A DNA stretch of 64,000 bases from Candidatus Nealsonbacteria bacterium (GTDB lineage Bacteria > Patescibacteriota > Minisyncoccia > Minisyncoccales > JANBVM01): positions 45,944-109,943 of the forward strand of contig CP179887.1 in the NCBI GenBank assembly GCA_047456295.1, in the 5' to 3' direction. A program made the position numbers and the translations under genes. The notes under the pieces were generated by a model that was not told where the DNA came from, searched no databases, and worked only from the letters and a program-made list of their open reading frames with translations. This document shows positions 39,344 through 61,690 of this stretch, one piece after another. Positions within the stretch are counted from its first letter, which is position 1; every line of letters starts with the position of its first letter.

Positions 39344-42300
39344 TCAGGCTTCCATAATCTCTTCAATGTTTTCACAGATGAGCTTTGGGGTTTCGCTTCG
39401 TCTATCAACCCTTCCTGAAACCAGAACGATTTTATTTTCCTTGAAAGCAGTAGGATTCTTTTCAATTATTGTTGGAAATACCACAACCTCAATTCTATCG
39501 GATAAATCCTCCAAAGTCATAAAAAACATGAGTCTTCCGGTTTTGGTAATAATCTTTTTTATCCTTGAAATAATTCCTCCAATCCTAACGTGACGGTTTG
39601 TTAAAGCAGGGACCAGGCTGGAAATTTTAGTTGCCTTTTTTTCTAAGATATCCTGGAAATCTTCCAAAGGATGGGAACTGACAAAAAGTCCTAACAGTTC
39701 TTTTTCCCAGGCCAGTTTTTGTCTTTTGGTAGCAGCCTCAATAGGTTGAAGATGAAGCTTATTGTTAAACTTCATTCCCTCAAAAAGCCCTTTTTGACCT
39801 GTGGTTAATATTTTTTGATTTTCCCGGCTGCAATCTAGAATCTTTTCTATGTTGAATAAAAGCAGGTTTCTTTCAACCAGTTTGTCAAAGGCACCGGCTT
39901 TAATAAGGCTTTGCAGGGATTTTTTGTTTAAATCAGTTGAACTTATCCTTAAGATAAAGTCATCTATTGACTGGAAGAGACCTTTATTTTTTCTCTCCTG
40001 GACTATGGATTCCACAATATTTGAACCAACATTTTTAATGGCCAATAATCCGAAACGAATTTGTTTTTTATTAGGAATAACCGTGAAGTTTCTCCAGCTC
40101 TGGTTTATATCAGGAGCCAGGATTTCAATGTCCATTCTTTTGCATTCCTGCATTAAAAATCCAATCCTTTCCACATCAGCCTTGCTTGAGGTTAAAAGAG
40201 CAGCCATAAATTCTACTGGAAAATGGGCTTTAAGATAAGCTGTTTGATAAGCAATAGTGGAATAGGCGCAGGAGTGGCTTCTGTTAAATCCGTAGCTGGC
40301 AAAGGGTAAAATCCATTGCCATATCTTCTGGGCAATCCTTTGTTCTATTCCGTTTTTCATCATTCCCTGGATTAGTTTTTCTTTTTGAGCCATAAGCAGG
40401 GATTTAATCTTTTTTCCAACAGCCTTTCTCAAGATGTCTGCTTCAGAAAGAGTGAAGCCTGCCAATTTTTGGGCAATGAGCATTAGGTCTTCCTGGTATA
40501 TGAGAAGGCCATAGGTTTTTCCCAGGATCTCTTTTAAGCTAGGATGTAAATATTCCACCTGTTTTTTTCCTTTTTTTCTGGCAATATATTCAGGAATAAG
40601 AGACATGGGACCTGGTCTATAAAGAGCAACCATGGTTATGATGTCTTCAAATTCAGTTGGTTTTAATTGTTTTAAGTATCGTTGAAAACCAGCTGATTCT
40701 AATTGAAAAACTCCGACTGTTTTTCCTTTTTGCAATAATTGATAGGTTTTTTTGTCGTTGAGAGGGATATTCTCAATGTCAATCTTCTTTTTCTTTCTAA
40801 CAACATAGATTCTTGTTAAGGTATCTTCAATAATGGTTAGATTCTTCAGTCCCAGGAAATCCATTTTCAGGAAACCCAGATCCTCTATTGAATGCATTTC
40901 ATATTGGGTAACAATAGTTGAATCATTCTGAGTGGGATGCTGTAAGGGAATGTCATTATCTAAGGATTCTTTTGAAATTACCACTCCGCAGGCATGGGTT
41001 GAGGCATGTCTGGCTACACCCTCCATTTTTTTTGCAAAATCAATAAGTTTTGTTGCTTTAGGATCTGTTTCATAAAGTTGTCTGAATTCAGGAATCTTTG
41101 CCAGGGTTTCATCCAGGGTAGAACCAAAAGGAATCATTTTTGCAACCCTGTCACAATAGCTATAAGCATAGTTAAGGGCTCTTCCAACATCTCTTACAGC
41201 TGCCCTGGCAGCCATTGTTCCAAAAGTAATGATTTGGGCTACCCGGTCTCTTCCGTATTTTTCAGCCACATATTCAATTACTTCATCCCTTCTTCTGTCG
41301 GTAAAATCCAAATCAATATCAGGCATTGATATGCGGGCAGGATTAAGAAATCTTTCAAATAAGAGATTATATTTCAAAGGGTCAATAGTTGTAATGCCTA
41401 AAACATAAGATACCAATGATCCCCCGACAGAACCCCTGCCTGGACCCACCACAATTCTTTTTTCTTTTGCCCAATTAACAAAATCCTGGACAATCAAAAA
41501 ATAAGAAGAAAAACCCATTTTATCAATCATGTCTAATTCATAGTTTAATCTGTCTAGGACCTCTTTTTTTGCCAGAGGCCCAAACTTTTTCTTTACTCCC
41601 TGAAGACATAAGTGCTTAATATATTCACCAGGCGTTTGGTTGTTTGGCGTTTCAAAATGAGGCAGTTTTGTTTTTCCGAGAACAAAATCAAAATTGCAGC
41701 TTTGCGCTATCCTTTGCGTATTTTCAATAGCTTGGGGTACATCCTTGAAATCTTCAATCATTTTTTCAGGAAGCCTTAAAGAAAAATCATCTGCTTTCAT
41801 GGTCAGTCTTTCCGGGTCATTGGGGTCAGATCCAGTATTAATAAGCATTAAGATGTCCTGGGCCTCTGCATCCTCTGGTCTTAAATAATGAGAGTCGTTT
41901 GTAGCTACCAGGGGAATGTTTAATTCTTTTGATATTAAGATAAGACCCTGATTGACAATTCCTTGCTCTCTTAGATTGGGATGGTGTTGTAGTTCTAAAT
42001 AAAAATTTCCTTTGCCTAAAATCTCCTGATATTTTAAAGCAGCTTTTTTAGCTGTCTCAGGTTTTTTGGCTAGAATTAACTGGGGGATTTTTCCCTGGAT
42101 ACAGGCTGATAAACCAATAAGTCCTTCTGAATAGCGGGATAATAGTTCTTCATCAATCCTGGGTTTGTAGTAAAAACCTTCCAGATGAGCTTTTGTTAAG
42201 AGTTTTACCAGATTCTTATAACCTGTTTTGTCTTTAACCAATAAAACCAAATGATATCTTCTATTATCAATGTTTGGCCTTTTTTGATGCATGCTTTCCA

Positions 42301-42517
42301 GGGCCATATATACTTCACAACCAATTATGGGCTTTATTCCTTTTTTCTTTGCCTTTTTGTAAAATTCAACTGCCCCGTAAAGAACCCCATGATCGGTTAT
42401 GGCAACAGAATCCATTCCCTGTTCTTTTACGTAATCCAAAAGTTCATCGATTTTTGGAAGGCCATCGAGCAGGGAATAATGACTATGAACGTGGAGATGG
42501 GTAAATTTTTTATCCAT
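39344..42517 (-). CDS. dnaE: DNA polymerase III alpha subunit
   Basis: PHP domain FTHLHVHSHYSLLDG; 1057 aa. Confidence 0.9.
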   Translation of the reverse strand: MDKKFTHLHVHSHYSLLDGLPKIDELLDYVKEQGMDSVAITDHGVLYGAVEFYKKAKKKGIKPIIGCEVYMALESMHQKRPNIDNRRYHLVLLVKDKTGYKNLVKLLTKAHLEGFYYKPRIDEELLSRYSEGLIGLSACIQGKIPQLILAKKPETAKKAALKYQEILGKGNFYLELQHHPNLREQGIVNQGLILISKELNIPLVATNDSHYLRPEDAEAQDILMLINTGSDPNDPERLTMKADDFSLRLPEKMIEDFKDVPQAIENTQRIAQSCNFDFVLGKTKLPHFETPNNQTPGEYIKHLCLQGVKKKFGPLAKKEVLDRLNYELDMIDKMGFSSYFLIVQDFVNWAKEKRIVVGPGRGSVGGSLVSYVLGITTIDPLKYNLLFERFLNPARISMPDIDLDFTDRRRDEVIEYVAEKYGRDRVAQIITFGTMAARAAVRDVGRALNYAYSYCDRVAKMIPFGSTLDETLAKIPEFRQLYETDPKATKLIDFAKKMEGVARHASTHACGVVISKESLDNDIPLQHPTQNDSTIVTQYEMHSIEDLGFLKMDFLGLKNLTIIEDTLTRIYVVRKKKKIDIENIPLNDKKTYQLLQKGKTVGVFQLESAGFQRYLKQLKPTEFEDIITMVALYRPGPMSLIPEYIARKKGKKQVEYLHPSLKEILGKTYGLLIYQEDLMLIAQKLAGFTLSEADILRKAVGKKIKSLLMAQKEKLIQGMMKNGIEQRIAQKIWQWILPFASYGFNRSHSCAYSTIAYQTAYLKAHFPVEFMAALLTSSKADVERIGFLMQECKRMDIEILAPDINQSWRNFTVIPNKKQIRFGLLAIKNVGSNIVESIVQERKNKGLFQSIDDFILRISSTDLNKKSLQSLIKAGAFDKLVERNLLLFNIEKILDCSRENQKILTTGQKGLFEGMKFNNKLHLQPIEAATKRQKLAWEKELLGLFVSSHPLEDFQDILEKKATKISSLVPALTNRHVRIGGIISRIKKIITKTGRLMFFMTLEDLSDRIEVVVFPTIIEKNPTAFKENKIVLVSGRVDRRSETPKLICENIEEIMEA

Positions 42518-42713
42518 GTCATTATATAAAGTTTAGCTCGCTCAGGGCGAGCATTGTATCATTTTACTTTTTTGGGTCTTCCAAGTCAAATTTTAAAAAT
42601 TATCAGATATCTTTTATAAAATTTGGACAGGCTAAGCCTGTCCAAAGAAGATAAAGTCTTAAGGCCTTATATGTAGACCTTAAGACCGCCCTATTTTTTA
42701 TTTTGAGTTTGAA

Positions 42714-42774
42714 ATATAATTAAGAAATGAAATACCCAAATTTTTCTGAAGAAAAAAAGTTATGGAAAAAGGGA
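42714..42774 (+). repeat. 61-bp direct repeat copy 1 (duplicate of rnhB promoter and first 12 codons)
   Basis: atataattaagaaatgaaatacccaaatttttctgaagaaaaaaagttatgGaaaaaggga; 60/61 identity with 46251..46311. Confidence 0.85.
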
Positions 42775-42848
42775 AAATCCAAACCAACATTCAGTAAATA
42801 AAATATGCCCCATCATTATTTGGTGGGGCTTTTCTTTCAAGGATTTTC

Positions 42849-44177
42849 TTATTCTAAAAGTTCGACTTGCTCCTCTTGGGCTTCAAACTCTACTTTGCTT
42901 TCTTCATTGAAGGATGGTATGAAAAAATCTGGAGGGATTAGTTCGACCTCTGAAATGCTTAAAATTCTAATCTTTGAAGGAATAAACGAACCTGCTTCCG
43001 TCCGCCTGCCTTTAGCTTCAATGATATCTCCTCGTTGAAAATCTTTTAACTTTATCTCTTTTTTGTCCTTGTTTAAGAGCATCGTTTTCTCGGTGAGTGC
43101 CACGCTTATCTCCTTTCCTTGCTGTTCTTGTATTGTAATGACTTTGGCACTTAATGCTACATCGGTAATCCTTCCTGTCACGGTATCCAAGAGGTATTGT
43201 TCTATGTTTGTTTGATGTTCCTCGTAGGTTTTGGCAGGGTGAATCTGTCCTTCGCTGTCGTGCAGGTAGTAAAGGTATTCGCTGTCCTCTGAATTAATCA
43301 CTGCATCAATCGCTGCCAGTCCTGGATTGCAGATTGGTGCTGGCGGGCGTCCTGTGTGCAGATAGGTGTTATAAGGGGAATCGGTTTTGTATTCCTCTGG
43401 CTTCACCTTCTTCCACCAGTTGCCTGGCTCTCCCAGTGCGTATTGAACGGTGGCGTCTATTTCAAACCTCATGTCCTGCAGCCATCTGTTCCAGATGATT
43501 CCCGCAACCAGAGGCATCTGTTTTTCATTGCCTGCTTCTCTCTGAATCAGCGAGGCGAGGACAATTAAAGTGTCGTTTCTGATGTTGTTTTTTTCTGCTT
43601 CTTTAAAAAGGTCTGCCACTTCCTCATTAAACTTGTCCTTCATTCTCTCGGCTACTTCTTGGCCAGTGTAATCTACGTTGAGCAGATAGGTGTCTGGAAA
43701 CAAGTAGCCCTCTTTAGTCCAGCTGAGAAACCTTCTTTCTTCCACTTCTGGCCAACCGATTTTCTCCTGAACCATTTCTGCTATTTCTTCTTTTCTCAGC
43801 CCCTCTGGGATCACTATCCATTTCTGGTAAGGATGATTGACCAGCGTGTCGGCCAAAAACCAAGCGTCCATTCCTTTTGAGACTATGTATCCGCCTGGTT
43901 CAATTTTGCCCTGCCACCCCTTTCTTTTTAATACGAAGTTAAACGCCCACTCGCTTCTGATGTAGCCCTGCTCTTTCAGCTTAGGAATGAATTCTTCTTC
44001 TGTTGTGGCCAGGTTGATTACGATTCGTTCTTCCTCTGCTGTTCTCTGCGGTGCTGAAAACTGATAAAAAAATACAGCAATAACGATTGCTGTCGCCAGG
44101 ACTATCCCGCTTCCGATTGCTATTTTTTTATTTCTGGTTATCACTGTCATTATCTTTTTATCATAAAATAAAGTCAA
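42849..44177 (-). CDS. MltG/YceG-like endolytic transglycosylase paralog with ~130-aa C-terminal extension
   Basis: N-terminal TM; SPYNTYLHTGRPPAPICNPG YceG motif; GC-richer than surroundings. Confidence 0.7.
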   Translation of the reverse strand: MTLFYDKKIMTVITRNKKIAIGSGIVLATAIVIAVFFYQFSAPQRTAEEERIVINLATTEEEFIPKLKEQGYIRSEWAFNFVLKRKGWQGKIEPGGYIVSKGMDAWFLADTLVNHPYQKWIVIPEGLRKEEIAEMVQEKIGWPEVEERRFLSWTKEGYLFPDTYLLNVDYTGQEVAERMKDKFNEEVADLFKEAEKNNIRNDTLIVLASLIQREAGNEKQMPLVAGIIWNRWLQDMRFEIDATVQYALGEPGNWWKKVKPEEYKTDSPYNTYLHTGRPPAPICNPGLAAIDAVINSEDSEYLYYLHDSEGQIHPAKTYEEHQTNIEQYLLDTVTGRITDVALSAKVITIQEQQGKEISVALTEKTMLLNKDKKEIKLKDFQRGDIIEAKGRRTEAGSFIPSKIRILSISEVELIPPDFFIPSFNEESKVEFEAQEEQVELLE

Positions 44178-44247
44178 GGGCTTTAGTTCTAAACCAAAAA
44201 ACCTCTTTGGATTGGCAGAGATTTTTTGGTTTTAAAATTCCTAAGTT

Positions 44248-44799
44248 TTACCAATAAATTCTTGAGGCATCGGCGTAAATCCTCTTATCAGCAGGAGATC
44301 CACAATCTGTAACTATCAATCTGTCTTTCTCGGAACTCCAATAGGAGGCGAATCCGTAACAACTATATTTTCCGACGCAAGGACATGTGTGAGCGTTTGT
44401 CCATCCGTAGGTGTTGTAGTGGTCTATTTTTCCTATGCAGTAGGTCGGAATATAATCCTTGTTGTAAAAATGATAATCTGCGTATGTGACTGGATTTGTT
44501 TCATACCAGGGGATGTAAAAATACGAGTCACTATCTCCTACCCACTGGTTATTCGTGGTGAATCTCCAAGAAGCATAGTCAGCCCACCCGTAAGGCAACC
44601 ACCCTGCATCGCAATTATAACTCAGTGCACTGAAGGTGTAATAATCCGTTGAGCAAACTCTGTTTGCTGGATTGTGAATTGCCCAATAACCCGCTAAATA
44701 ACGGTCGCAGGATGTCTCGTAGCCCGCTAATACCACCCCTATTATTACTGCCACTAATGCCACTCCAAGAATTGTCGCAATAATTGTTTTCTTTCCCAT
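44248..44799 (-). CDS. membrane-anchored Tyr/Trp/Cys-rich protein
   Basis: N-terminal TM; about 14% Tyr, many W and 8 Cys; no known domain. Confidence 0.5.
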   Translation of the reverse strand: MGKKTIIATILGVALVAVIIGVVLAGYETSCDRYLAGYWAIHNPANRVCSTDYYTFSALSYNCDAGWLPYGWADYASWRFTTNNQWVGDSDSYFYIPWYETNPVTYADYHFYNKDYIPTYCIGKIDHYNTYGWTNAHTCPCVGKYSCYGFASYWSSEKDRLIVTDCGSPADKRIYADASRIYW

Positions 44800-44803
44800 A
44801 GTT

Positions 44804-45679
44804 TTATGGAAGCCAATTTTGGTAATTAATAATTTCTCCTTTTACTGGTTCAACCGCTACTAAAATCTGGTAATCTTTGGGTGTTTTCTCGCCTGTGGCA
44901 GGATAAATAAAAATGAAGGTGTTTCCTTTTTCTGTTGCCCGTTGAACTTCACAATTTTCTATTACCTCTTTTGCTTTTGCTTCTCCTATTGTTTTAGTCA
45001 GAAGGGTTAAAACATTTTCCCTCGCTTCTTTTTCGGTTATCTTTCCTTCTTTGTAACGGCAATTTTCGTCGAGAATGTCTTGACGGGTTTTGCACCAATT
45101 TTCTCCCCCTATTTGCAAACTGAGAATTTTGTTTTTGTCTACATCAAAATAGAAAATTCGCCCTTGCTCGTCTGTGTATTCTTCCATTACATTCTCTTTG
45201 GTGTAGGGATTTCCGCTAACTTTCTGATAGACCACATTGCTTTCTCCAAATAAATCTTTAATTTGTTTGATTGTTTCTGCTCTTTCCTCTATTGGTCTCT
45301 CTAAATTTTCTTTAATTAAATTTTCTCTGTGAATCTGTATTTCAAGGAAATCAATTTCTTTGCCTACCTCTTCTTTTAAACGAGGGGAGAAAACTATCAC
45401 ATAGGTTTCTTTATTGCTGGCGAGATACTCCATTGTCTCCAATTCTTCTCCTATTGTTTGTTTGATTCTTTGAATTTTTTCTTCTACTCCTTCTTCTCCC
45501 TTTCGGAATATTTGGATTATTCCATCTTTTTTAAAACCCAAATCTTTTTTGCCTTCTTCATAATACTGAAGGTTAGGGTCTTTTTGGTATTTCTCTGATA
45601 CTCCTATTACTATTCCTGCTGCTACTCCCACTACTAATGTTGATAAGCCAACGCCAAGTAGTATTTTTTTAATTTCCAT
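44804..45679 (-). CDS. membrane-anchored hypothetical protein
   Basis: N-terminal TM helix, 291 aa, no known domain. Confidence 0.5.
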   Translation of the reverse strand: MEIKKILLGVGLSTLVVGVAAGIVIGVSEKYQKDPNLQYYEEGKKDLGFKKDGIIQIFRKGEEGVEEKIQRIKQTIGEELETMEYLASNKETYVIVFSPRLKEEVGKEIDFLEIQIHRENLIKENLERPIEERAETIKQIKDLFGESNVVYQKVSGNPYTKENVMEEYTDEQGRIFYFDVDKNKILSLQIGGENWCKTRQDILDENCRYKEGKITEKEARENVLTLLTKTIGEAKAKEVIENCEVQRATEKGNTFIFIYPATGEKTPKDYQILVAVEPVKGEIINYQNWLP

Positions 45680-45965
45680 GAGTTTGTTTCTTTTAATCTT
45701 TCTTCGACCTTTGTGGTTTCCCCCTATCGCTTCGAGCCAATCCTCGCTTCGATAGTTTGTTGGGGATTCCTATCTTTTATTTTCACTTTTCCTTGAAATC
45801 AAGTCAAGGGGGTTTCTTTTTTCCCCGTGTTCGATTCTGTTGTCTCTATTCTGAATGCGTAGCCATCTTGGATGAAAATTGTAATCCTGCCAAATTTCAA
45901 TTTTCGGGCATCTTGGTATGCCTTCTTAATGATTCGCCTTGCTCTTTTTTCTCTGTTTTCTTTTT

Positions 45966-46244
45966 TTATCGGTTTGGTTCATACTTTAGCCGTTTTTTTA
46001 ATGCGATGTGCCAGTAAATAAGTGCAGTCCAGAAGTGGTCTGCTCCCGAGTTCGCCCATTCTCTTTTTTCCTGCCCGTATTTGTCGGTGACGGTTCTGGC
46101 GTAAATGGTCTGGGCATGTTTGATTAATAATTGAAAGGTTGGTGCTTCTTTTGGCATTGCGAAGGTAATGTCCCCTCTCATTAAGGCAGAGATGGTATCG
46201 TCGTAGATTCTGTTTCTTGAGGTGAACACTTTCATTAGTTTCAA
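45966..46244 (-). CDS. 92-aa hypothetical; possible C-terminal nuclease-fold fragment (terminase-like GxDH..[DT]AL.Y motif)
   Basis: GADHFWTALIYWHIAL; abuts DR2. Confidence 0.3.
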   Translation of the reverse strand: MKLMKVFTSRNRIYDDTISALMRGDITFAMPKEAPTFQLLIKHAQTIYARTVTDKYGQEKREWANSGADHFWTALIYWHIALKKRLKYEPNR

Positions 46245-46250
46245 ATTTTA

Positions 46251-46311
46251 ATATAATTAAGAAATGAAATACCCAAATTTTTCTGAAGAAAAAAAGTTAT
46301 GCAAAAAGGGA
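46251..46311 (+). repeat. 61-bp direct repeat copy 2 (native rnhB promoter/start)
   Basis: see copy 1. Confidence 0.85.
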
Positions 46312-46923
46312 TTTAAAAGAGTGGTTGGATTAGACGAGGCAGGAAGAGGACCCTTGGCAGGACCTGTGCTGGCTGGAGCAGTTATGGTCAATTCAAAATT
46401 CAGAATTAAAAATTCAAAATTAAAAGTAAACGATTCAAAAAAGCTTTCAGAGAAAAAAAGAAGAGAACTGTATAAAATTTTAGTGAATCATTCCCAGATA
46501 GAGTGGGGAATAGGCAGGGTTTCAGAAAAAGTCATTGATAGAATCAATATCCTGGAAGCCACCAAATTGGCAATGAAAAGAGCTATTAAGAATCTGGGAA
46601 AGAAATTAAAAAAGAAACAACAGAAAAAATCAGATTCAGTTGGTTTTTTAATTTTAGACGGGAGAATAAAGCTTGATTTGGATATTCCTCAGAAATCAAT
46701 CATTAAAGCTGATAACAAGGTTTTTTCCTGTGCCGCGGCATCCATTATAGCTAAGGTAAGCAGGGACAGGATAATGCAAAGGTGGGATAAAAAATACGTT
46801 AGATATGGATTCTTAAAACATAAGGGATATGCTACCAAGCTTCACCTTAAGATGTTAAAGAAATACAAACCCTGTAAGATTCACAGAAAGAGTTTCAAAC
46901 CAGTGCAGAGATTGCTTCATTAA
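46264..46923 (+). CDS. rnhB: ribonuclease HII
   Basis: VGLDEAGRGPLAGPVLAGAV active-site motif. Confidence 0.85.
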   Translation: MKYPNFSEEKKLCKKGFKRVVGLDEAGRGPLAGPVLAGAVMVNSKFRIKNSKLKVNDSKKLSEKKRRELYKILVNHSQIEWGIGRVSEKVIDRINILEATKLAMKRAIKNLGKKLKKKQQKKSDSVGFLILDGRIKLDLDIPQKSIIKADNKVFSCAAASIIAKVSRDRIMQRWDKKYVRYGFLKHKGYATKLHLKMLKKYKPCKIHRKSFKPVQRLLH

Positions 46924-46983
46924 ATTGAGAAGCTTGATTTTTATAAAAAATAATGTAAGAATATAAAATTAACTTTTAATTTA

Positions 46984-47268
46984 ATGGCTGTACCCAAGAA
47001 GAGAACGACAAAGTCAAAACGGGATAAAAGAAGGCTCCATATTTTTTTAAAGAAACCTGTTTTAGCCAGATGTCCAAAATGTGGTAAGTTATTATTACCC
47101 CATACCCTTTGTTCTTATTGCGGGTATTATAAAGGGAGGGAGATTGTAAACATTCTTGGTAAAATGACCAAAAAAGAAAGGAAGAAAAGAGAAAAAGAAA
47201 TGAAGGAAAAAGACAAAGAAACCCAAAAGAAGAAACCCTTGGACTGGAAGCAGTTATCTAAAAGATAA
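46984..47268 (+). CDS. rpmF: 50S ribosomal protein L32 with K/E-rich C-terminal extension
   Basis: [17 protein letters not shown]...CPKCG...CSYCGYY. Confidence 0.85.
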
Positions 47269-47275
47269 ATCACAT

Positions 47276-47722
47276 ATGGCTTCAAGACACTTATCACGAA
47301 GTATCGCTATGCAATCCCTTTATGAATGGGATTTTAGCAATAAAGAACTGGATTTGGACAAAATCGTTGAAAAGAATTTAAAGGAGTTTGGTCCAGGATT
47401 AGAGGATCAAGGATTTGTCTGGGAGCTGGTAACAGGAGTGGTTGAACATTTAAAAGAGATTAATGAGATTATTACAAAGGCTGCTCCTCAATGGCCTCTG
47501 CAGCAGATTTCCATTGTTGATAGAAATATCCTGAGAATCGGGATTTACGAGTTGTTATACGAAGATAGAAAAGCTGTTCCTCCCAAGGTAGCCATTAATG
47601 AGGCAATTGAATTGGCAAAATCCTTTGGAGGTGAAAATTCAGGAAAATTTATAAACGGGGTCCTGGGAACGGTCTTTGAACTTATTTCTTCTTCTGAAAA
47701 AGAACAAAAACCCAAGAAATAA
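47276..47722 (+). CDS. nusB: transcription antitermination factor NusB
   Basis: [18 protein letters not shown]; 148 aa. Confidence 0.8.
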
Positions 47723-47724
47723 CA

Positions 47725-48426
47725 ATGAACAACAAGATGAAAGATTTCTCCCTTTTTGAAAAAAAATTAAAGATTAAATTTAAAAACAAGGATCTCTTGA
47801 CTCAGGCTTTTGTCCACCGTTCTTATTTAAACGAAAATCCAGATTTTCCTTTGTTTCACAATGAAAGACTGGAGTTTTTAGGAGATGCTGTATTGGAGTT
47901 GGTTGTGACCGAAGAGCTTTACAAAGAATATCCTAAAAAATCAGAAGGAGAACTAACCAATTGGCGGGCAGCCCTGGTCAATTCAAAGATACTTTCAGAG
48001 ATTGCCGACGAATTGGGTTTGAATGATTTTTTACTGTTATCCAGGGGGGAGACAAAAGAACTTGGTAAGTCCAGGAAATATATTTTAGCCAATACCTTTG
48101 AAGCCATGATTGGAGCCATTTATCTTGACCAGGGATATGGAGTCTGTCGGGATTTAATTAAAAAACATTTAATAAAGGAATTACCTTTAATTATTGAAAA
48201 AGGTCTTTATAAAGATGCCAAATCCCTTTTTCAGGAGGAAGCACAGGAAAAGGTGGAAATTACCCCTACTTACAAAGTATTGAAAGAGTGGGGACCTGAC
48301 CATGCCAAACATTTCATTATCGGGGTTTTTCTGGAAAAAGAATTAATAGCAGAAGGTGAGGGTTCTTCAAAGCAGGAAGCAGAGGATGAGGCAGCTAAAA
48401 AAGCTTTAGAAGTTAAAAAATGGTAA
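47725..48426 (+). CDS. rnc: ribonuclease III
   Basis: ERLEFLGDAVLELVVTEELY signature and C-terminal dsRBD. Confidence 0.9.
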   Translation: MNNKMKDFSLFEKKLKIKFKNKDLLTQAFVHRSYLNENPDFPLFHNERLEFLGDAVLELVVTEELYKEYPKKSEGELTNWRAALVNSKILSEIADELGLNDFLLLSRGETKELGKSRKYILANTFEAMIGAIYLDQGYGVCRDLIKKHLIKELPLIIEKGLYKDAKSLFQEEAQEKVEITPTYKVLKEWGPDHAKHFIIGVFLEKELIAEGEGSSKQEAEDEAAKKALEVKKW

Positions 48427-48427
48427 T

Positions 48428-48931
48428 ATGCTTGTTATTCGTTTGTTTCGTGTCGGTAAAAAAAATCAGCCTTCTTTCAAGATTGTGGTAATTGACAAAA
48501 GGAAACCTCCCAGACGAGGCCGCTTTATAGAAGAGGTTGGTTTTTTAAATCCTTTAACTAAAGAAAAGGTGTTGAGAAAGGAAAGGATTGATTACTGGAT
48601 GTCGGTGGGAGCCAAACCCTCAGATACGGTTCATAATTTATTGGTTGAAGAAAAGATTATTGAAGGAAAGAAAATTGTAAAACATAAGAAAGCAAAAAAG
48701 AAAGAGAAAAAAGAGGAAGGGAAGATTCCATCTCAAGAAGAGAAACCCAAAGAACAAAAGAAGGAAGAGAAAAAAGAAATTCAAGTCCCAGAGGAAAAAG
48801 TAAAAGAAGTTTCAATCTCAAAGAAACCAGAGGAGGTTTCAGCTCCAGGAGAAAAAAAAGAGAGGCAAAAACAGACTAAAGAAGCATCTAATACAAAGAA
48901 AGAAGAAGATAAAAAGGAAAAAACAGAATAA
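48428..48931 (+). CDS. rpsP: 30S ribosomal protein S16 with K/E-rich C-terminal extension
   Basis: MLVIRLFRVGKKNQPSFKIVV N-terminus. Confidence 0.85.
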   Translation: MLVIRLFRVGKKNQPSFKIVVIDKRKPPRRGRFIEEVGFLNPLTKEKVLRKERIDYWMSVGAKPSDTVHNLLVEEKIIEGKKIVKHKKAKKKEKKEEGKIPSQEEKPKEQKKEEKKEIQVPEEKVKEVSISKKPEEVSAPGEKKERQKQTKEASNTKKEEDKKEKTE

Positions 48932-49115
48932 TTTTTGGAGAGGAGAAGAATCAGACAGTTCTTTATAAAAAAAGAGAAGGAAATCCTTGGATGATGGAAT
49001 TTGTCAGCTATAAATTAGTAGATAGATTCCACTATCCAAGGAGCTGATTAAAATTAAAATAAAAATTAAAGTATTTCCAGAACAAGAAATTTTTAAAAAA
49101 CCTGGAATAGAAGAT

Positions 49116-49355
49116 ATGGCAGAGAGAATAAAGGATGTATATATAGATTTGGACGTACATACAGCAGGGATCTTTCAAAAAGCATCACCAGAATTAAAAA
49201 GGAGGATAAAAAATGAATTTGAAAATCTTTTCCGCCATTTTGGAAAATTAGGATTTACATCTTTTTTAGTAACGGCTGAAACAGACGATTGGAGTATGGT
49301 GAATAAGATGAAAGAAGCTCTAGATAATTTACATGAAGAATTAACTTTATATTAA
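49116..49355 (+). CDS. hypothetical protein
   Basis: ORF only. Confidence 0.35.
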   Translation: MAERIKDVYIDLDVHTAGIFQKASPELKRRIKNEFENLFRHFGKLGFTSFLVTAETDDWSMVNKMKEALDNLHEELTLY

Positions 49356-49428
49356 AAAACCAAACCCTTCTCTTTTTTTTAATTTTTAGAAGTTATTAAA
49401 AGAAGGGATTTATTTTAGAATTAATCCT

Positions 49429-49457
49429 TGACATATTTTAAATAATAAATATAATAT
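49429..49457 (+). promoter_or_regulatory. consensus sigma70 promoter (TTGACA-N17-TATAAT)
   Basis: cttgacatattttaaataataaatataat sits ~105 nt upstream of the KH-protein gene. Confidence 0.55.
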
Positions 49458-49562
49458 CAGTATTGGTAGCTTTTTCAGTTTAGCCGATTCTCCGAATGAT
49501 TGGAGGAGGGTAGGCTGCAAAGGTCGGGCTACTCAAAAATCACTTAATTGTTGTAGGAATTT

Positions 49563-49880
49563 ATGGCAAAAGGAACAGCTGATAAAGATTTCCTTGAATT
49601 CATTATCAAGGCCTTGGTTGACAACCCAGATGATGTCAAAGTTGACCGTAGGGTTGATGAGATGGGAGTTTTACTTTCTTTAAAGGTAAACCCTGAAGAC
49701 ATGGGTCAGATCATTGGAAAGGCTGGATCTACTGCTCGGGCTATCAGAAACCTGGTTCGTATCGTCGGTCTTAAAAATCACGCTAGGGTGAATTTAAAGA
49801 TTGAGGAACCAGAAGGAGCCAGAGCTTCTCAGGGAAAGAAATCTAAAGTTGAAGAAGGACTAGAAGACTTAAAAATATAA
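49563..49880 (+). CDS. KH-domain RNA-binding protein (UPF0109/YlqC-like)
   Basis: IIGKAGSTARAIRNLV GxxG KH motif; located between rpsP and trmD as usual. Confidence 0.75.
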   Translation: MAKGTADKDFLEFIIKALVDNPDDVKVDRRVDEMGVLLSLKVNPEDMGQIIGKAGSTARAIRNLVRIVGLKNHARVNLKIEEPEGARASQGKKSKVEEGLEDLKI

Positions 49881-60026: not shown

Positions 60027-60653
60027 ATGGCTTTAATCAATAACCTAATCCAACAAGGTTGGTTAAAAACACCTAAAATTATTAAGGCTTTTAAAGAAAT
60101 CAAAAGAATTGATTTTTTGCCTGAAGATTCAAAAAATCTGGCTGAATTAAATGAACCCCTACCAATAGGATATGGACAGACAATATCTCAACCATTGGTT
60201 GTAGCTTTTATGATAGAACACCTCCAACCTAAACAAGGCCATAAGATTTTAGATATTGGTTCAGGTTCAGGCTGGACAACAGCCTTGTTGTCTTACATTG
60301 TAGGACCCAAAGGAAAGGTAATAGCCATTGAAGTTATTCCAGAATTAAAGGAGTTTGGAAAGAAAAACGTATCAAAATACAACTTTATACAAAAAGGAAT
60401 AGCAGAATTTATATGTGCAGATGGTTCAAAAGGGTATGAAATAAAAGCCCCTTTCGACAACATCTTAGCCTCAGCTTCAGCCCAGGAAATTCCTCAATCC
60501 TGGAAAGAACAATTGAGGATAGGTGGCAGTATTGTAACCCCTATTAAGTCTTCCATCTGGGTTTTCACCAAAAAATCAGAAAAAGACTTTGAGGAACGGG
60601 AATATCCTGGTTTTGCTTTTGTACCACTTATAACAAAGAATGAAAACACATGA
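60027..60653 (+). CDS. pcm: protein-L-isoaspartate O-methyltransferase
   Basis: GYGQTISQP...ILDIGSGSGWTTALL SAM motif. Confidence 0.85.
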   Translation: MALINNLIQQGWLKTPKIIKAFKEIKRIDFLPEDSKNLAELNEPLPIGYGQTISQPLVVAFMIEHLQPKQGHKILDIGSGSGWTTALLSYIVGPKGKVIAIEVIPELKEFGKKNVSKYNFIQKGIAEFICADGSKGYEIKAPFDNILASASAQEIPQSWKEQLRIGGSIVTPIKSSIWVFTKKSEKDFEEREYPGFAFVPLITKNENT

Positions 60654-61690
60654 AAGAGACTAATAAATCAACAATCTTTGTTTTTTGTTTTCTTGTTTTT
60701 TTTATATTTATCTGGCAACAGATTTATCTGCCTTTAAATTCTTCTGATACTGAAGATAGATTATTTTTAATTGAAAGAGGTCAGAATCTTTTTCAAATTT
60801 CTGGAAATCTGGAAAAACAAGTGATAAAGGACAGGTTTTCGTTTAATCTTTATGTGTTTTTAAAAGGCGGTGCAGGAAGGCTTCAGGCAGGGGAATATGT
60901 TTTTAATCCTTCAATGAGCATTGCAAGGATTGCTGATAAAATAATTTCTGGTGATGTTGCAAAAGAAACCATATTGATTCCCGAAGGATGGAATTTAAAA
61001 GACATTGCCTGGTATCTGGAAAACAAAGGAATGTTTCAGGCAGAAGAACTTTTTGAATTAGTGGGTTTTCGCTTGATTGATTACTCCCACAATAGTGATT
61101 TGCCAGAACTCAAGGATTTTAGTTCAGATCATGATTTTTTAACTGATAAACCCAAGAATATAGGATTGGAGGGTTATCTTTTTCCTGACACCTATGAAAT
61201 AAAAAGGAATAGCAGTTTGGAAGAGATTGTTAGGAAAATACTGGATAATTTTGGCAAGAAATTAAGTGGAGAATTAAGGGAAGAAATAAAAAGACAGGAA
61301 AAAACAATCTTTGAAATAATAACAATAGCTTCTTTAATAGAAAAAGAAGTTAAAACACCTGAAGAGAAAAAAATAGTTTCTGGAATCTTATGGAAAAGAT
61401 TGAAAAACAAAATACCTTTGCAGGTTGACGCTACCATAAACTATATTACTGGTAAAAAAACAACAAAGGTTTTAATACAAGAAACCAAGATTGATTCTCC
61501 TTATAACACCTATAAATATGGAGGATTACCTTTGGGTCCCATCTGCAACCCTGGAATTGAAAGCATTATATCAGCCCTCTATCCTGAAAGCAGTGAATAT
61601 TCTTATTATCTGTCTACTTCTGAAGGAGAAACCCTTTTTAGTAAAACCCTGGAAGAACATAATTTAAAAAAAGCTCAGTATCTTAAATAA
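60650..61690 (+). CDS. mltG: endolytic murein transglycosylase MltG/YceG
   Basis: N-terminal TM; SPYNTYKYGGLPLGPICNPG motif. Confidence 0.85.
   Translation: MKETNKSTIFVFCFLVFFIFIWQQIYLPLNSSDTEDRLFLIERGQNLFQISGNLEKQVIKDRFSFNLYVFLKGGAGRLQAGEYVFNPSMSIARIADKIISGDVAKETILIPEGWNLKDIAWYLENKGMFQAEELFELVGFRLIDYSHNSDLPELKDFSSDHDFLTDKPKNIGLEGYLFPDTYEIKRNSSLEEIVRKILDNFGKKLSGELREEIKRQEKTIFEIITIASLIEKEVKTPEEKKIVSGILWKRLKNKIPLQVDATINYITGKKTTKVLIQETKIDSPYNTYKYGGLPLGPICNPGIESIISALYPESSEYSYYLSTSEGETLFSKTLEEHNLKKAQYLK

What the first reader, a model, noticed from the sequence alone, without database searches (positions are those of the whole stretch)
42714..46311. 3.5-kb GC-richer insertion bounded by 61-bp direct repeats that duplicate the rnhB promoter and first 12 codons
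Copies at 42714..42774 and 46251..46311 are 60/61 identical and both encode MKYPNFSEEKKL. The upstream copy starts a 24-codon dead ORF and the downstream copy starts the real RNase HII. Between them, on the minus strand, are a second MltG paralog with a C-terminal extension, a Tyr/Trp/Cys-rich membrane-anchored protein, a membrane protein and a 92-aa ORF. Sampled windows inside reach about 45% GC against about 33% outside. This is consistent with a horizontally acquired element inserted at the 5' end of rnhB.
Basis: seen in the sequence. Interest (0 to 1): 0.7.

Follow-up and report, generated by a model that had tools for sequence, protein, structure and literature searches.

The report
Captured phage fragment beside rnhB
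A 3.5-kb internal piece of a phage genome (the end of its DNA-packaging gene plus three cell-envelope genes) was spliced in by non-specific recombination just in front of the RNase HII gene of an ultra-small Nealsonbacteria bacterium, and sister strains still show the uninterrupted site.

Summary
Copies at 42713-42774 and 46250-46311 match at 61/62 bases. They flank 3,475 bp that is absent from every relative examined.

The insert is not a self-mobile element. It is an internal segment of a ~33-kb tailed phage genome and keeps the phage gene order: the last 89 codons of the terminase large subunit (93% identical to an IMG/VR phage), a YpeB-like tandem-PepSY membrane protein, a Cys/Tyr/Trp-rich membrane protein, and a phage-type MltG.

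It carries no integrase. The complete related phage has no attP-like core. Both insert ends lie inside the phage map. Phage homology stops in an 8-nt stretch (CTTTCATT) shared with host DNA.

Strain-level relatives show two empty alleles. E2 is an exact single-copy site. E1 lacks a 95-bp hairpin spacer and has the same 21/22 nt that precede the window's right copy.

A 100%-identical 3,545-bp contig from independent read assemblies reproduces both junctions, so this is not a chimera.

Best reading: illegitimate, microhomology-mediated capture of phage DNA, still polymorphic in the population. Whether this happened in one step or via two strains is unresolved. It is a new member of a known kind and of moderate interest.

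The parts
42518..42617 (.). 'A' part of the dnaE-rnhB spacer, present in all alleles. It ends with CTTTTAT (42611-42617), the left member of the 7/8-nt direct repeat that brackets everything absent from allele E1.
   Evidence: Identical to L018 through 42617, where the L018 alignment jumps to 46229. A dnaE promoter-like site lies at 42589-42561 on the minus strand.
42618..42712 (.). 95-nt spacer segment found in the window (F) and in allele E2 (L020) but not in E1. It contains two hairpins (42622-42646 and 42655-42687) that read as terminator-like on the minus strand, followed by the E2-type sequence just upstream of the repeat.
   Evidence: The window and L020 differ by paired stem changes (TT..AA versus CC..GG). 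There is no other copy in the window.
42713..42774 (+). Left copy of the 62-nt direct repeat: TATAAT box, ATG at 42727, first 16 codons of rnhB.
   Evidence: 61/62 identical to 46250-46311. L020 aligns continuously through 42774 and then resumes at 46250.
42727..42801 (+). Dead 24-codon ORF (MKYPNFSEEKKLWKKGKSKPTFSK*), made of the rnhB start fused to insert DNA.
   Evidence: The tail loosely resembles an RNase HII C-terminus (E 0.19), which I judge to be not significant.
42775..42848 (.). Left end of the insert: 74 nt downstream of MltG2 with a bidirectional terminator-like hairpin (42807-42829). The left junction is 42774|42775. Origin unproven; presumed to come from the donor phage.
   Evidence: There is no homologue in any fetched locus, and the hairpin 23-mer is absent from JGI metagenomes and IMG/VR.
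42849..44150 (-). MltG2: a phage-type YceG/MltG endolytic transglycosylase (433 aa) with an N-terminal membrane anchor, a ~75-aa C-terminal domain common in this subfamily, and an unusual extra ~37-aa tail.
   Evidence: Pfam YceG 6e-71. 69% identical to phage L002 MltG versus 30% to the host MltG. Matches PDB 4iiw at 3.7e-29 and 2r1f at 3e-17. Tail comparison.
44144..44180 (-). Promoter-like repeat (CCCTTGACTT...), copy 1, at the start of MltG2.
   Evidence: Direct-repeat family D4. TTGACT-17-GATAAT scores 10/12. This is a consensus match only.
44248..44799 (-). YWC183: a membrane-anchored 183-aa protein rich in Cys, Tyr and Trp, from an orphan family. It is the positional homologue of the phage gene between p29x and MltG.
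   Evidence: 26-30% identical to L003 7043-7585 and L002 5606-6223. Only 3 representative clusters among 1.84 billion proteins. No Pfam or PHROG match. The structure model was unusable.
44804..45679 (-). p291: a membrane-anchored protein whose ordered part (residues ~53-291) folds like the tandem PepSY domains of the spore protein YpeB. It is the positional homologue of phage p297.
45774..45810 (-). Promoter-like repeat, copy 2, upstream of p291-YWC183. The surrounding non-coding stretch is still homologous to phage DNA downstream of TerL.
   Evidence: blastn places window 45793/45821-46236 on phages L001, L002 and L004.
45966..46236 (-). TerL': the last 89 codons plus stop of a phage terminase large subunit, cut off at its 5' side. 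The mechanical ORF runs to 46244.
   Evidence: phrog_675 positions 473-550 of 576, E 3e-7. 93/88/83/81/72/66% amino-acid identity to TerL residues ~430-519 of six IMG/VR phages. 21 synonymous and 6 non-synonymous codon differences from L001, with no stop codon.
46229..46236 (.). Right junction: CTTTCATT. It is the last stretch of phage homology (phages have C[T/C]TTTATT) and also the first stretch of homology to host allele E1 (CTTTTATT), giving an 8-nt microhomology.
46237..46249 (.). 13 nt (AGTTTCAAATTTT) between the junction and the right repeat. It is identical to the sequence at the same place in the empty allele E1 (L018, L019, L024, L025) and unlike the sequence upstream of the left copy.
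   Evidence: Its similarity to the E2-type sequence or to phage DNA is not above shuffled controls.
46250..46311 (+). Right copy of the 62-nt repeat: the working start of rnhB.
46264..46923 (+). rnhB (RNase HII, 219 aa), intact. It is 100% identical to XOB40501.1 of a Candidatus Nealsonbacteria MAG.

Best explanation
**What it is.** The 3,475 bp between the repeats is a contiguous internal fragment of the genome of a ~33-kb tailed phage that infects Nealsonbacteria-like CPR bacteria. It runs from the 3' end of the terminase large-subunit gene through a three-gene envelope cassette: a YpeB-like PepSY protein, a Cys/aromatic-rich protein, and MltG.

**How it got there (inferred).** It entered the dnaE-rnhB spacer by illegitimate recombination, not by an integrase.
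- The right end joined host DNA at an 8-nt microhomology (CTTTyATT), 35 nt upstream of the rnhB ATG.
- The left end joined inside rnhB at codon 16.
- Because the two joins were offset, the stretch between them (TATAAT box plus 16 codons) is now present twice. This left rnhB whole, with a start region identical in type to the one that drives rnhB in E1 strains.

**Unresolved step.** The offset joins could have arisen in either of two ways, and I cannot separate them.
- (a) One event in an E2-type genome. The E1 allele would then arise later, by a CTTTyAT-mediated deletion that removed the island and left a 13-nt scar.
- (b) Two steps through a phage-host hybrid DNA molecule that passed between E1-type and E2-type strains (homology-facilitated illegitimate recombination).

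**What it does now (inferred).** The fragment cannot move on its own. It could be lost by recombination between the 62-nt repeats. Its three complete genes carry their own promoter-like sites. They probably give the cell an extra membrane-tethered glycan-strand cleaving enzyme, with a PepSY partner that may restrain or position it, as YpeB does for SleB.
For: **Shown**
- **Phage origin and colinearity.** TerL' is 93% identical at the amino-acid level and 86% at the nucleotide level to L001. MltG2 is 69% identical at the amino-acid level and 75% at the nucleotide level to L002. p291 and YWC183 match the phage genes in the same positions, E 3e-13 and 6e-6.
- **The relatives are genuine phages.** They carry TerS, TerL, portal/adaptor, major head protein, tail fibre and amidases.
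- **The GC mosaic of the insert mirrors the phage's own.** p29x is AT-rich in the phage too.
- **Both ends are internal to the phage map.** Phage genes continue after MltG, and TerL is cut at about residue 430.
- **No recombinase in the insert**. **No inverted repeats at its ends**.
- **No attP-like sequence** in the complete 33,323-bp related phage (best hits 12-13 nt, E 0.04-0.3) or anywhere in IMG/VR.
- **Right-junction microhomology**.
- **Empty sites.** E2 (L020) aligns to 42774 and resumes at 46250. E1 (L018, L019, L024, L025) aligns to 42617 and resumes at 46229. More distant genomes also have dnaE directly next to rnhB.
- **Independent assemblies reproduce both junctions.** L021 is 3,545/3,545 identical to 42735-46279, which is exactly the span expected from k=31 contig breaks inside the repeat.
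- **Recent capture.** TerL' differs from L001 by 21 synonymous and 6 non-synonymous codons with no stop codon, and the repeat copies differ at 1 of 62 positions.
- **The HFIR mechanism** is described in PMC3240628.
Against: - The exact donor phage was not found. The left 224 nt of the insert (the MltG2 tail plus 74 nt) has no homologue, so left-junction microhomology could not be tested.
- Neither sub-model fits all polymorphisms.
  - Under (a), the 13 nt at 46237-46249 need an ad hoc origin, and the E1 cores carry G13, G20 and G55, which are not seen in the window's right copy.
  - Under (b), the right core should look E1-like, but it is nearly identical to the left copy, which would require gene conversion.
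  - Flank SNPs group the window with L018 on the left but are star-like for the first 1.5 kb on the right.
- The phage family does encode a tyrosine integrase, so lysogeny as such is possible.
- The cargo functions are inferred from folds and family names only. The PepSY-MltG partnership is an analogy, and the p29x-p18x pair also occurs without MltG in L026.
Confidence: 0.75

Rival explanations
1. Remnant of a site-specifically integrated prophage. A temperate phage used its tyrosine integrase to integrate at an attB formed by the conserved 5' end of rnhB, so the 62-nt repeats would be attL and attR. Two later deletions removed about 30 kb and left only TerL'-to-MltG.
For: - The closest complete phage encodes a tyrosine integrase (L028 18359-19267, PF00589 3.6e-24), and L006 has an ImmA/IrrE peptidase.
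- Direct repeats at the conserved end of a housekeeping gene that keep the gene intact are the classic att signature.
- The first ~35 nt of rnhB are conserved at the nucleotide level across relatives.
Against: - There is no core-like sequence in the whole related phage or in IMG/VR.
- Both insert ends are internal phage positions, so two separate deletions would each have to end within 0-13 nt of an att core.
- The right boundary sits in a phage/host microhomology instead.
- The 13-21 nt upstream of the right copy is a host allele found in strains with no phage DNA (E1).
- The integrase region is absent.
Confidence: 0.1
2. The island was carried in as part of a larger composite segment inserted into an E1-type genome. 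Relative to E1 the extra DNA is 42618-46228 (3,611 bp), bracketed by a 7/8-nt CTTTyAT direct repeat, which resembles a transposition-style target duplication.
For: The L018 alignment breaks at 42617 and resumes at 46229 with a 7-nt overlap. E1 is the most frequently sampled allele (4 datasets).
Against: - There is no transposase.
- There are no terminal inverted repeats.
- The left 157 nt of that segment is ordinary host spacer plus the rnhB start, identical in type to E2.
- The same pattern is what a microhomology-mediated deletion of the island would leave behind.
Confidence: 0.05
3. Assembly chimera. The MAG assembler joined host and phage contigs through a shared repeat, and no such molecule exists.
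For: The window comes from a metagenome-assembled genome, and phage relatives co-occur with this species in related samples (L002 is from JGI sample 3300029813 and L020 from 3300029812).
Against: - The phages lack the repeat, so there is no shared sequence to mis-join through.
- The two copies differ at one base.
- Independent Logan assemblies of runs DRR463593 and DRR463592 give contigs 100% identical across both junctions. Run DRR310880 gives a contig 1,018/1,019 identical to an internal part of the insert (43980-44998).
Confidence: 0.02
4. The arrangement is ancestral and the 'empty' sites are all secondary losses, so there was no insertion in this lineage.
For: E1 could well be a deletion product, and the 62-nt repeats would allow clean loss to give E2.
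Against: - Four more distant genomes lack the cassette at this site (L007, L008, L009, L029).
- The truncated terminase, the phage-like GC3 and the synonymous-dominated divergence from living phages indicate a recent arrival.
Confidence: 0.05

Closest known systems
Cryptic prophage remnants / phage-derived genomic islets in bacterial chromosomes
   Same: - Phage genes in phage order.
- A truncated phage structural or packaging gene (TerL').
- Atypical composition.
- Absent from sister strains.
- The retained 'moron-like' cargo is intact while the phage machinery is gone.
   Different: - It is only 3.5 kb.
- Neither end coincides with a prophage end or att site.
- It lies next to no integrase or tRNA.
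- It appears to have entered as a fragment rather than decayed from a full prophage.
Homology-facilitated / microhomology-mediated illegitimate recombination (HFIR; PMC3240628)
   Same: - Foreign DNA with no homology was integrated with a short microhomology at a junction (8 nt here).
- No dedicated recombinase is involved.
- Host sequence at the site is duplicated as a by-product.
- The flanks show a mosaic of two population alleles, as expected if a homologous anchor came from another strain.
   Different: - HFIR has been shown experimentally in naturally transformable bacteria and in E. coli conjugation.
- Here it is inferred from sequence only, in an uncultured CPR bacterium.
- The anchor side and the delivery route (transformation versus phage particle) are unknown, and the left junction could not be examined.
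Integrase-mediated insertion at the end of a conserved gene (attL/attR direct repeats that rebuild the target gene)
   Same: Direct repeats flank the insert, the target gene is kept whole by the duplicated end, and the empty site has a single copy.
   Different: The defining features were tested and not met: there is no integrase in the insert, no attP core in the phage, and the insert ends are internal phage sequence.
SleB-YpeB pair of Bacillus spores (a lytic transglycosylase with a membrane-anchored tandem-PepSY partner that holds it inactive)
   Different: - The enzyme is an MltG/YceG fold, not SleB.
- There is no detectable sequence similarity (no Pfam PepSY hit).
- A third gene lies between the two.
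- The p29x-p18x pair can occur without MltG.
- No interaction has been shown.

Membership tests
Site-specific integrative element (prophage or island with att repeats) | Integrase/recombinase gene inside the element | tested here: not met
   The four insert ORFs are MltG, two proteins with no family match, and a TerL fragment (Pfam and PHROGs).
Site-specific integrative element (prophage or island with att repeats) | The repeat core is also present in the free element (attP) | tested here: not met
   The whole related phage genome (33,323 bp) gives only 12-13-nt chance matches. The exact core is absent from IMG/VR. The true donor phage is unknown, so this test is indirect.
Site-specific integrative element (prophage or island with att repeats) | The element ends correspond to the ends of the integrated phage genome | tested here: not met
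   One end is at about residue 430 of TerL. At the other end, the phages follow MltG with a methyltransferase, a 482-aa protein and the portal.
Site-specific integrative element (prophage or island with att repeats) | The empty site carries one copy of the core | tested here: met
   L020 aligns to 42774 and resumes at 46250, with a single 62-nt copy.
Phage-derived remnant / islet | Genes homologous to phage genes and in phage order | tested here: met
   The order TerL / p29x / p18x-20x / MltG is colinear with L001-L005.
Phage-derived remnant / islet | Absent from close relatives and compositionally atypical | tested here: met
   Five same-species contigs and four more distant genomes lack it. 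Its GC is the highest of 606 windows, and the GC3 of three genes exceeds every host gene.
Illegitimate / microhomology-mediated recombination product | Short microhomology between donor and recipient exactly at the junction | tested here: met
   At the right junction, CTTTCATT (46229-46236) corresponds to phage C[T/C]TTTATT and to host E1 CTTTTATT.
Illegitimate / microhomology-mediated recombination product | The same at the second junction | not testable with these tools
   The donor sequence beyond 42775 was not found in any collection.
Homology-facilitated illegitimate recombination (HFIR) | One side joined by homologous recombination with DNA from another strain (allele mosaic) | tested here: inconclusive
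   Upstream of the repeats the left copy is E2-type and the right copy is E1-type. However, the right core is not E1-like, and the flank SNPs conflict.
Transposon / insertion sequence | Transposase, terminal inverted repeats and a short target duplication | tested here: not met
   There is no transposase and no inverted repeats at the ends. The duplication is 62 nt. The 7/8-nt CTTTyAT repeat relative to E1 is equally what a microhomology deletion would leave.
MltG / YceG endolytic transglycosylase | YceG domain over its full length, with an N-terminal membrane anchor | tested here: met
   PF02618 at 6e-71, profile positions 4-274 of 275. Aligns to 4iiw and 2r1f. The hydrophobic N-terminus is visible in the sequence.
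MltG / YceG endolytic transglycosylase | Catalytic glutamate retained | tested here: inconclusive
   The conserved I-E-K-E motif of the solved proteins reads I-Q-R-E here, so one Glu is kept. I could not verify from the tools which Glu is catalytic.
YpeB-like tandem PepSY proteins | Membrane anchor plus repeated PepSY fold | tested here: met
YpeB-like tandem PepSY proteins | Sequence-level membership (Pfam PepSY) | tested here: not met
   No Pfam hit at E <= 0.1.
YpeB-like tandem PepSY proteins | Binds or regulates a partner muralytic enzyme | not testable with these tools
   Supported by gene neighbourhood only.
Terminase large subunit | Complete ATPase and nuclease domains | tested here: not met
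   Only profile positions 473-550 of 576 are present, so it is a dead fragment.

The most novel reading that the evidence does not exclude
Two linked readings remain open.

(1) The commonest 'empty' allele (E1) may not be pristine. It could be the scar of a gain-and-loss cycle. The island inserted, and a CTTTyAT microhomology deletion later removed it together with 95 nt of native spacer. That left 13-21 nt of junction DNA, which now forms the promoter-proximal sequence of rnhB in much of the population. Transient capture of a phage fragment would then have permanently rewritten the control region of a housekeeping gene.

(2) The cargo may be a previously unrecognised phage/CPR muralytic module. 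In it, a YpeB-like PepSY protein and a Cys/aromatic-rich partner would control a membrane-tethered MltG. The module would shuttle between phages and CPR chromosomes.
Probability: 0.3. Interest if true: 0.5.

Novelty: new member of a known kind. Interest (0 to 1): 0.35.

Why it matters
CPR/Patescibacteria have tiny genomes, are almost all uncultured, and very little is known about their phages or how they acquire genes.

This locus is a clean natural example of phage-to-host gene flow. The donor family is identified, one junction is resolved to the base, and filled and empty alleles are sampled from several datasets of one species. It shows that even a ~0.69-Mb genome picks up phage DNA by non-specific recombination. 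It also shows that the products are polymorphic, and so visible to selection.

It flags a three-gene envelope cassette: a PepSY/YpeB-like protein, an orphan Cys-rich protein, and MltG. Its parts recur in phages and in CPR chromosomes, and it may regulate cell-wall cleavage.

None of this overturns current understanding. It is a well-documented case rather than a new principle.

Tried and rejected
**Searches that found nothing**
- The exact core is absent from IMG/VR and from JGI metagenomes.
- The tail hairpin 23-mer is absent from both collections.
- Viral relatives of YWC183, of the MltG2 C-terminal 113 aa, and of the p291 alignment were not found by pattern scans.
- Exact-protein look-ups of RnhB and of the 442-aa MltG ORF were not on record.

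**Ideas tested and dropped**
- *The left dead ORF is an internally deleted rnhB.* Its tail KSKPTFSK* plus hairpin resembles the L008 RnhB end KSFKPVKSFIK* plus hairpin. This rests on a 20/23-nt hit with E 0.19 in AT-rich stop/terminator context. I rejected it as not significant, and the E2 allele explains the left copy without it.
- *The 13-14 nt upstream of the right copy is a diverged copy of the E2-type sequence, or is phage-derived.* Alignment scores were reached by 423/2000 and 170/2000 shuffles respectively, so neither is supported.
- *The H hairpins are a repeated mobile element.* There are no other copies in the window.

**Uninformative results**
- Outgroup polarisation of E1 versus E2 with L007 and L029. 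Those spacers are unrelated.
- The YWC183 single-sequence structure (pLDDT 39).
- The BFVD fold search of p291, which gave no significant match.

**Unavailable**
- The afdb50 structure library could not be searched.

Full report
**1.

The repeat finder returns one long direct-repeat family in 41000-48000: 42698-42774 versus 46235-46311, 77 nt at 91%. Its inner 61 nt (42714-42774 and 46251-46311) match at 60/61. Against an empty-site allele the duplicated unit is 62 nt (42713-42774 and 46250-46311), 61/62 identical, with the mismatch at repeat position 53.

The repeat holds a TATAAT box, the ATG and the first 16 codons of rnhB. The left copy opens a 24-codon ORF that stops at 42799-42801. The right copy starts a 219-aa RNase HII (Pfam 1.5e-37).

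Between the copies, all on the minus strand, lie:
- a YceG/MltG gene (Pfam 6e-71);
- a 183-aa gene for a protein with 8 Cys, 9 Trp and 23 Tyr;
- a 291-aa gene;
- a 92-aa ORF.

Composition is distinct but not uniform.
- Insert GC is 0.404, the top of 606 sliding windows (mean 0.3505, sd 0.020).
- The GC3 values of MltG2, YWC183 and the 92-aa ORF exceed all 55 host genes measured.
- p291 is host-like.

**2. The organism and the empty sites.**

RNase HII is 100% identical to XOB40501.1 of a Candidatus Nealsonbacteria MAG, on a 689,429-bp contig.

In three more distant Patescibacteria (L007, L008, L009) dnaE and rnhB are divergent direct neighbours, about 40-310 bp apart. L007 also keeps the whole flanking order: thrS-like, dnaE, rnhB, rpmF, nusB, rnc, rpsP.

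Members of the same 90% RnhB cluster gave strain-level contigs that are 97-99% identical to the window's flanks. All of them lack the insert: L018, L019, L020, L024 and L025.

**3. What the insert is.**

The 92-aa ORF matches profile positions 473-550 of 576 of a terminase large-subunit family. It is 93, 88, 83, 81, 72 and 66% identical to the last ~89 residues of TerL in six IMG/VR contigs of 33-34.6 kb. DNA similarity also covers the non-coding stretch after the TerL stop, and the MltG gene at 75% over 986 nt to L002.

In those phages the order is TerS, TerL, a ~297-aa gene, a ~201-aa gene, MltG, and then a methyltransferase, a 482-aa gene and the portal/adaptor.
- p291 matches the phage gene in the same position (31%, E 3e-13).
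- YWC183 matches its positional counterpart (26-30%, E 6e-6 and 1.6e-4).
- MltG2 is 69% identical to the phage MltG but only 30% to the host's own MltG at 60650-61690.

I reconstructed one phage in full (33,323 bp). It also has a major head protein, a tail fibre, two amidase-domain proteins, a 1,813-aa polyvalent protein and a tyrosine integrase.

The insert is therefore a contiguous internal slice of such a genome. Its uneven GC copies the phage's own pattern: in L002, p297 is 0.356 between TerL at 0.442 and MltG at 0.427.

No other part of the window is related to these phages, apart from a KhpA-type KH protein that phage L003 shares with the host.

**4. How it got there.**

An integrase/att mechanism was tested and does not fit.
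- The insert has no recombinase.
- Both of its ends are internal phage positions.
- The complete related phage has nothing like the core or its flanks (best 12-13-nt matches, E 0.04-0.3).
- The core is absent from IMG/VR.

At the right end, phage homology stops at 46236, inside CTTTCATT. The phages read C[T/C]TTTATT there.

The strain contigs reveal two empty alleles.
- **E2 (L020)** has the same 95-nt hairpin-bearing spacer segment as the window's left side and a single core. It aligns to 42774 and resumes at 46250, so it is an exact empty site for the 62-nt repeat.
- **E1 (L018, L019, L024, L025)** lacks that 95 nt. It reads ...GATAT-CTTTTATT-AGTTTCAAATTTT-core. Its 22 nt before the core match the 22 nt before the window's right copy at 21 positions. 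It aligns to 42617 and resumes at 46229.

Two points follow.
- The right junction is an 8-nt microhomology between the phage terminase gene and host spacer of the E1 type.
- The window is a mosaic: E2-type upstream of the left copy and E1-type upstream of the right copy.

This is the footprint of illegitimate recombination. The 62-nt duplication is a by-product of two offset joins, at rnhB codon 16 on the left and at -35 on the right. The outcome left rnhB whole, preceded by the same 21 nt that precede it in E1 strains.

**5. Which route?**

Two routes fit, and I could not separate them.
- **(a) One event, then a deletion.** An insertion occurs in an E2-type genome. E1 arises later by a deletion between CTTTTAT (42611-42617) and CTTTCAT (46229-46235), which leaves a 13-nt scar.
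- **(b) Two steps between strains.** A phage-host hybrid DNA forms in one strain and recombines into another, homologously on one side and illegitimately on the other. This is HFIR as described in PMC3240628.

Evidence bearing on the choice:
- Left-flank SNPs group the window with L018 (L020-unique sites 139, against 34 L018-unique and 26 window-unique). This suits (a).
- The first 1.5 kb of the right flank is star-like.
- All E1 cores carry G13 and G20, which the window's right copy lacks. Position 55 is A in both window copies and in the outgroup L029, but G in both E1 and E2.
- The 13 nt at 46237-46249 are not significantly similar to the E2-type sequence or to phage DNA.

Either route needs an extra conversion or recombination step. 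That is unsurprising in a recombining population.

**6. It is not an artefact, and it is recent.**

A Logan contig from run DRR463593 (L021, 3,545 bp) is 100% identical to 42735-46279. That is exactly 40 nt of the left core (unique from position 23 because of the G at position 53), plus 3,475 nt, plus 30 nt of the right core. A k=31 assembler breaking inside the repeat would produce precisely this span.
- L022 (run DRR463592) is 100% identical to 43312-46279 and agrees with it.
- L023 (run DRR310880) is 1,018/1,019 identical to 43980-44998 and agrees with it.

TerL' differs from L001 by 21 synonymous and 6 non-synonymous codons, with no stop or frameshift. The repeat copies differ at 1 of 62 positions.

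**7. The cargo.**

- **MltG2** aligns over the catalytic domain with solved MltG proteins (4iiw at 3.7e-29, 2r1f at 3e-17) and has an N-terminal anchor. Its subfamily is abundant: 7,615 hits, many at 70-88% identity. It also sits alone in unrelated spots of CPR chromosomes, often among restriction or defence genes, with homology limited to the gene itself. Most members are 392-399 aa; MltG2 has about 37 extra C-terminal residues.
- **p291** has only four homologues among 5.8 billion proteins.
- **YWC183** has only three representative clusters among 1.84 billion proteins.
- **The two as a pair** also occur between recR and rplU in another CPR MAG, without TerL or MltG (L026).

YpeB is the membrane-anchored partner that holds the spore lytic transglycosylase SleB inactive (bioRxiv 10.64898/2026.06.01.729290; PMC6660665). 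By analogy, p291 may restrain or position MltG2. This is inference only.

Two similar promoter-like motifs (CCCTTGACTT...; 44180-44144 and 45810-45774, minus strand) precede MltG2 and p291. A bidirectional hairpin at 42807-42829 separates MltG2 from the dead ORF.

GenBank phages hold only distant MltG relatives, at 32% identity or less.

**8. Verdict.**

The finding is real and its interpretation is supported, with two corrections. The insert is a captured phage fragment, not a self-mobile element. The repeats are a recombination by-product, not att sites.

It is a new member of a known kind: a phage-derived islet acquired by illegitimate recombination. Its interest lies in how well the case is resolved in a CPR bacterium, and in the PepSY-MltG cassette.

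Noticed in passing
window 42618-42697, and L020 7915-7995: Two adjacent hairpins in the dnaE-rnhB spacer read as terminator-like on the minus strand, although in the empty E2 allele no minus-strand gene lies upstream of them. The window and L020 differ by paired, structure-preserving changes in the first stem (TT..AA versus CC..GG). The block is absent from allele E1 and is not repeated elsewhere in the window.
   Followed up: partly
L029 5141-6000 (complete Nealsonbacteria chromosome CP179891.1): At the same dnaE-rnhB site this genome has an 860-bp spacer. It holds a 125-aa minus-strand ORF (no significant Pfam hit) and several copies of an AAGAACCTTG(ATTCTCGCTTCGCTCGAATT)-type repeat. The spacer is 41 bp in L008, about 80 bp in L007 and 313 bp in L009. 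The site looks like a hotspot for small insertions.
   Followed up: partly
L008 5400-11030: In this Saccharibacteria-labelled MAG, 5.6 kb is inserted between rnhB and rpmF. It carries a 669-aa minus-strand ORF and ORFs of 138, 151 and 817 aa. Only a weak PKD-domain hit was found, and nothing phage-like.
   Followed up: partly
L012 4372-5568; L013 10001-11188; L015 10001-10963: Close relatives (72-82% identical) of the phage-type MltG occur as single genes in unrelated places in CPR chromosomes. They are often next to restriction-modification, AbiEi, SLFN/AlbA or methyltransferase genes. DNA homology starts at the start codon and ends at the gene end, which suggests this gene is exchanged widely on its own.
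   Followed up: partly
L026 3759-5204 (MAG GCA_017973895.1): Homologues of p291 (50% identical) and YWC183 form a two-gene cassette between recR and rplU, with no terminase or MltG nearby.
   Followed up: partly
window 49563-49880, and L003 363-698: The host KhpA-type KH-domain protein has a 45%-identical homologue encoded near the end of phage contig L003. This looks like a host-like RNA-binding gene carried by the phage.
   Followed up: partly
window 48428-48931, versus L020 10191-10541: Ribosomal protein S16 is 167 aa here and in L018, with a long Lys/Glu-rich C-terminal tail, but 116 aa in L020. The region 48311-49862 holds most of the L020-specific differences on the right flank (107 sites).
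   Followed up: no
L002 328-2333 and 7518-8471; L006 5019-6116: These ~33-kb phages carry several DNA methyltransferases, including a ParB-methyltransferase fusion just before the terminase genes. The closest complete genome also carries a tyrosine integrase (L028 18359-19267) and two amidase-domain proteins. L006 has an ImmA/IrrE peptidase. Together these suggest a temperate lifestyle whose true attachment site is unknown.
   Followed up: partly
window 42727-42774 and 46264-46311; L007, L008, L009, L011, L029 rnhB starts: The first ~35 nt of rnhB (ATGAAATACCCAAATTTTTCTGAAGAAAAAAAGTT) are nearly invariant at the nucleotide level across genomes whose RNase HII proteins are only 59-74% identical. 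A TATAAT sits 7-9 nt before the ATG in the window, L007 and L029, which suggests a very short or absent leader.
   Followed up: no
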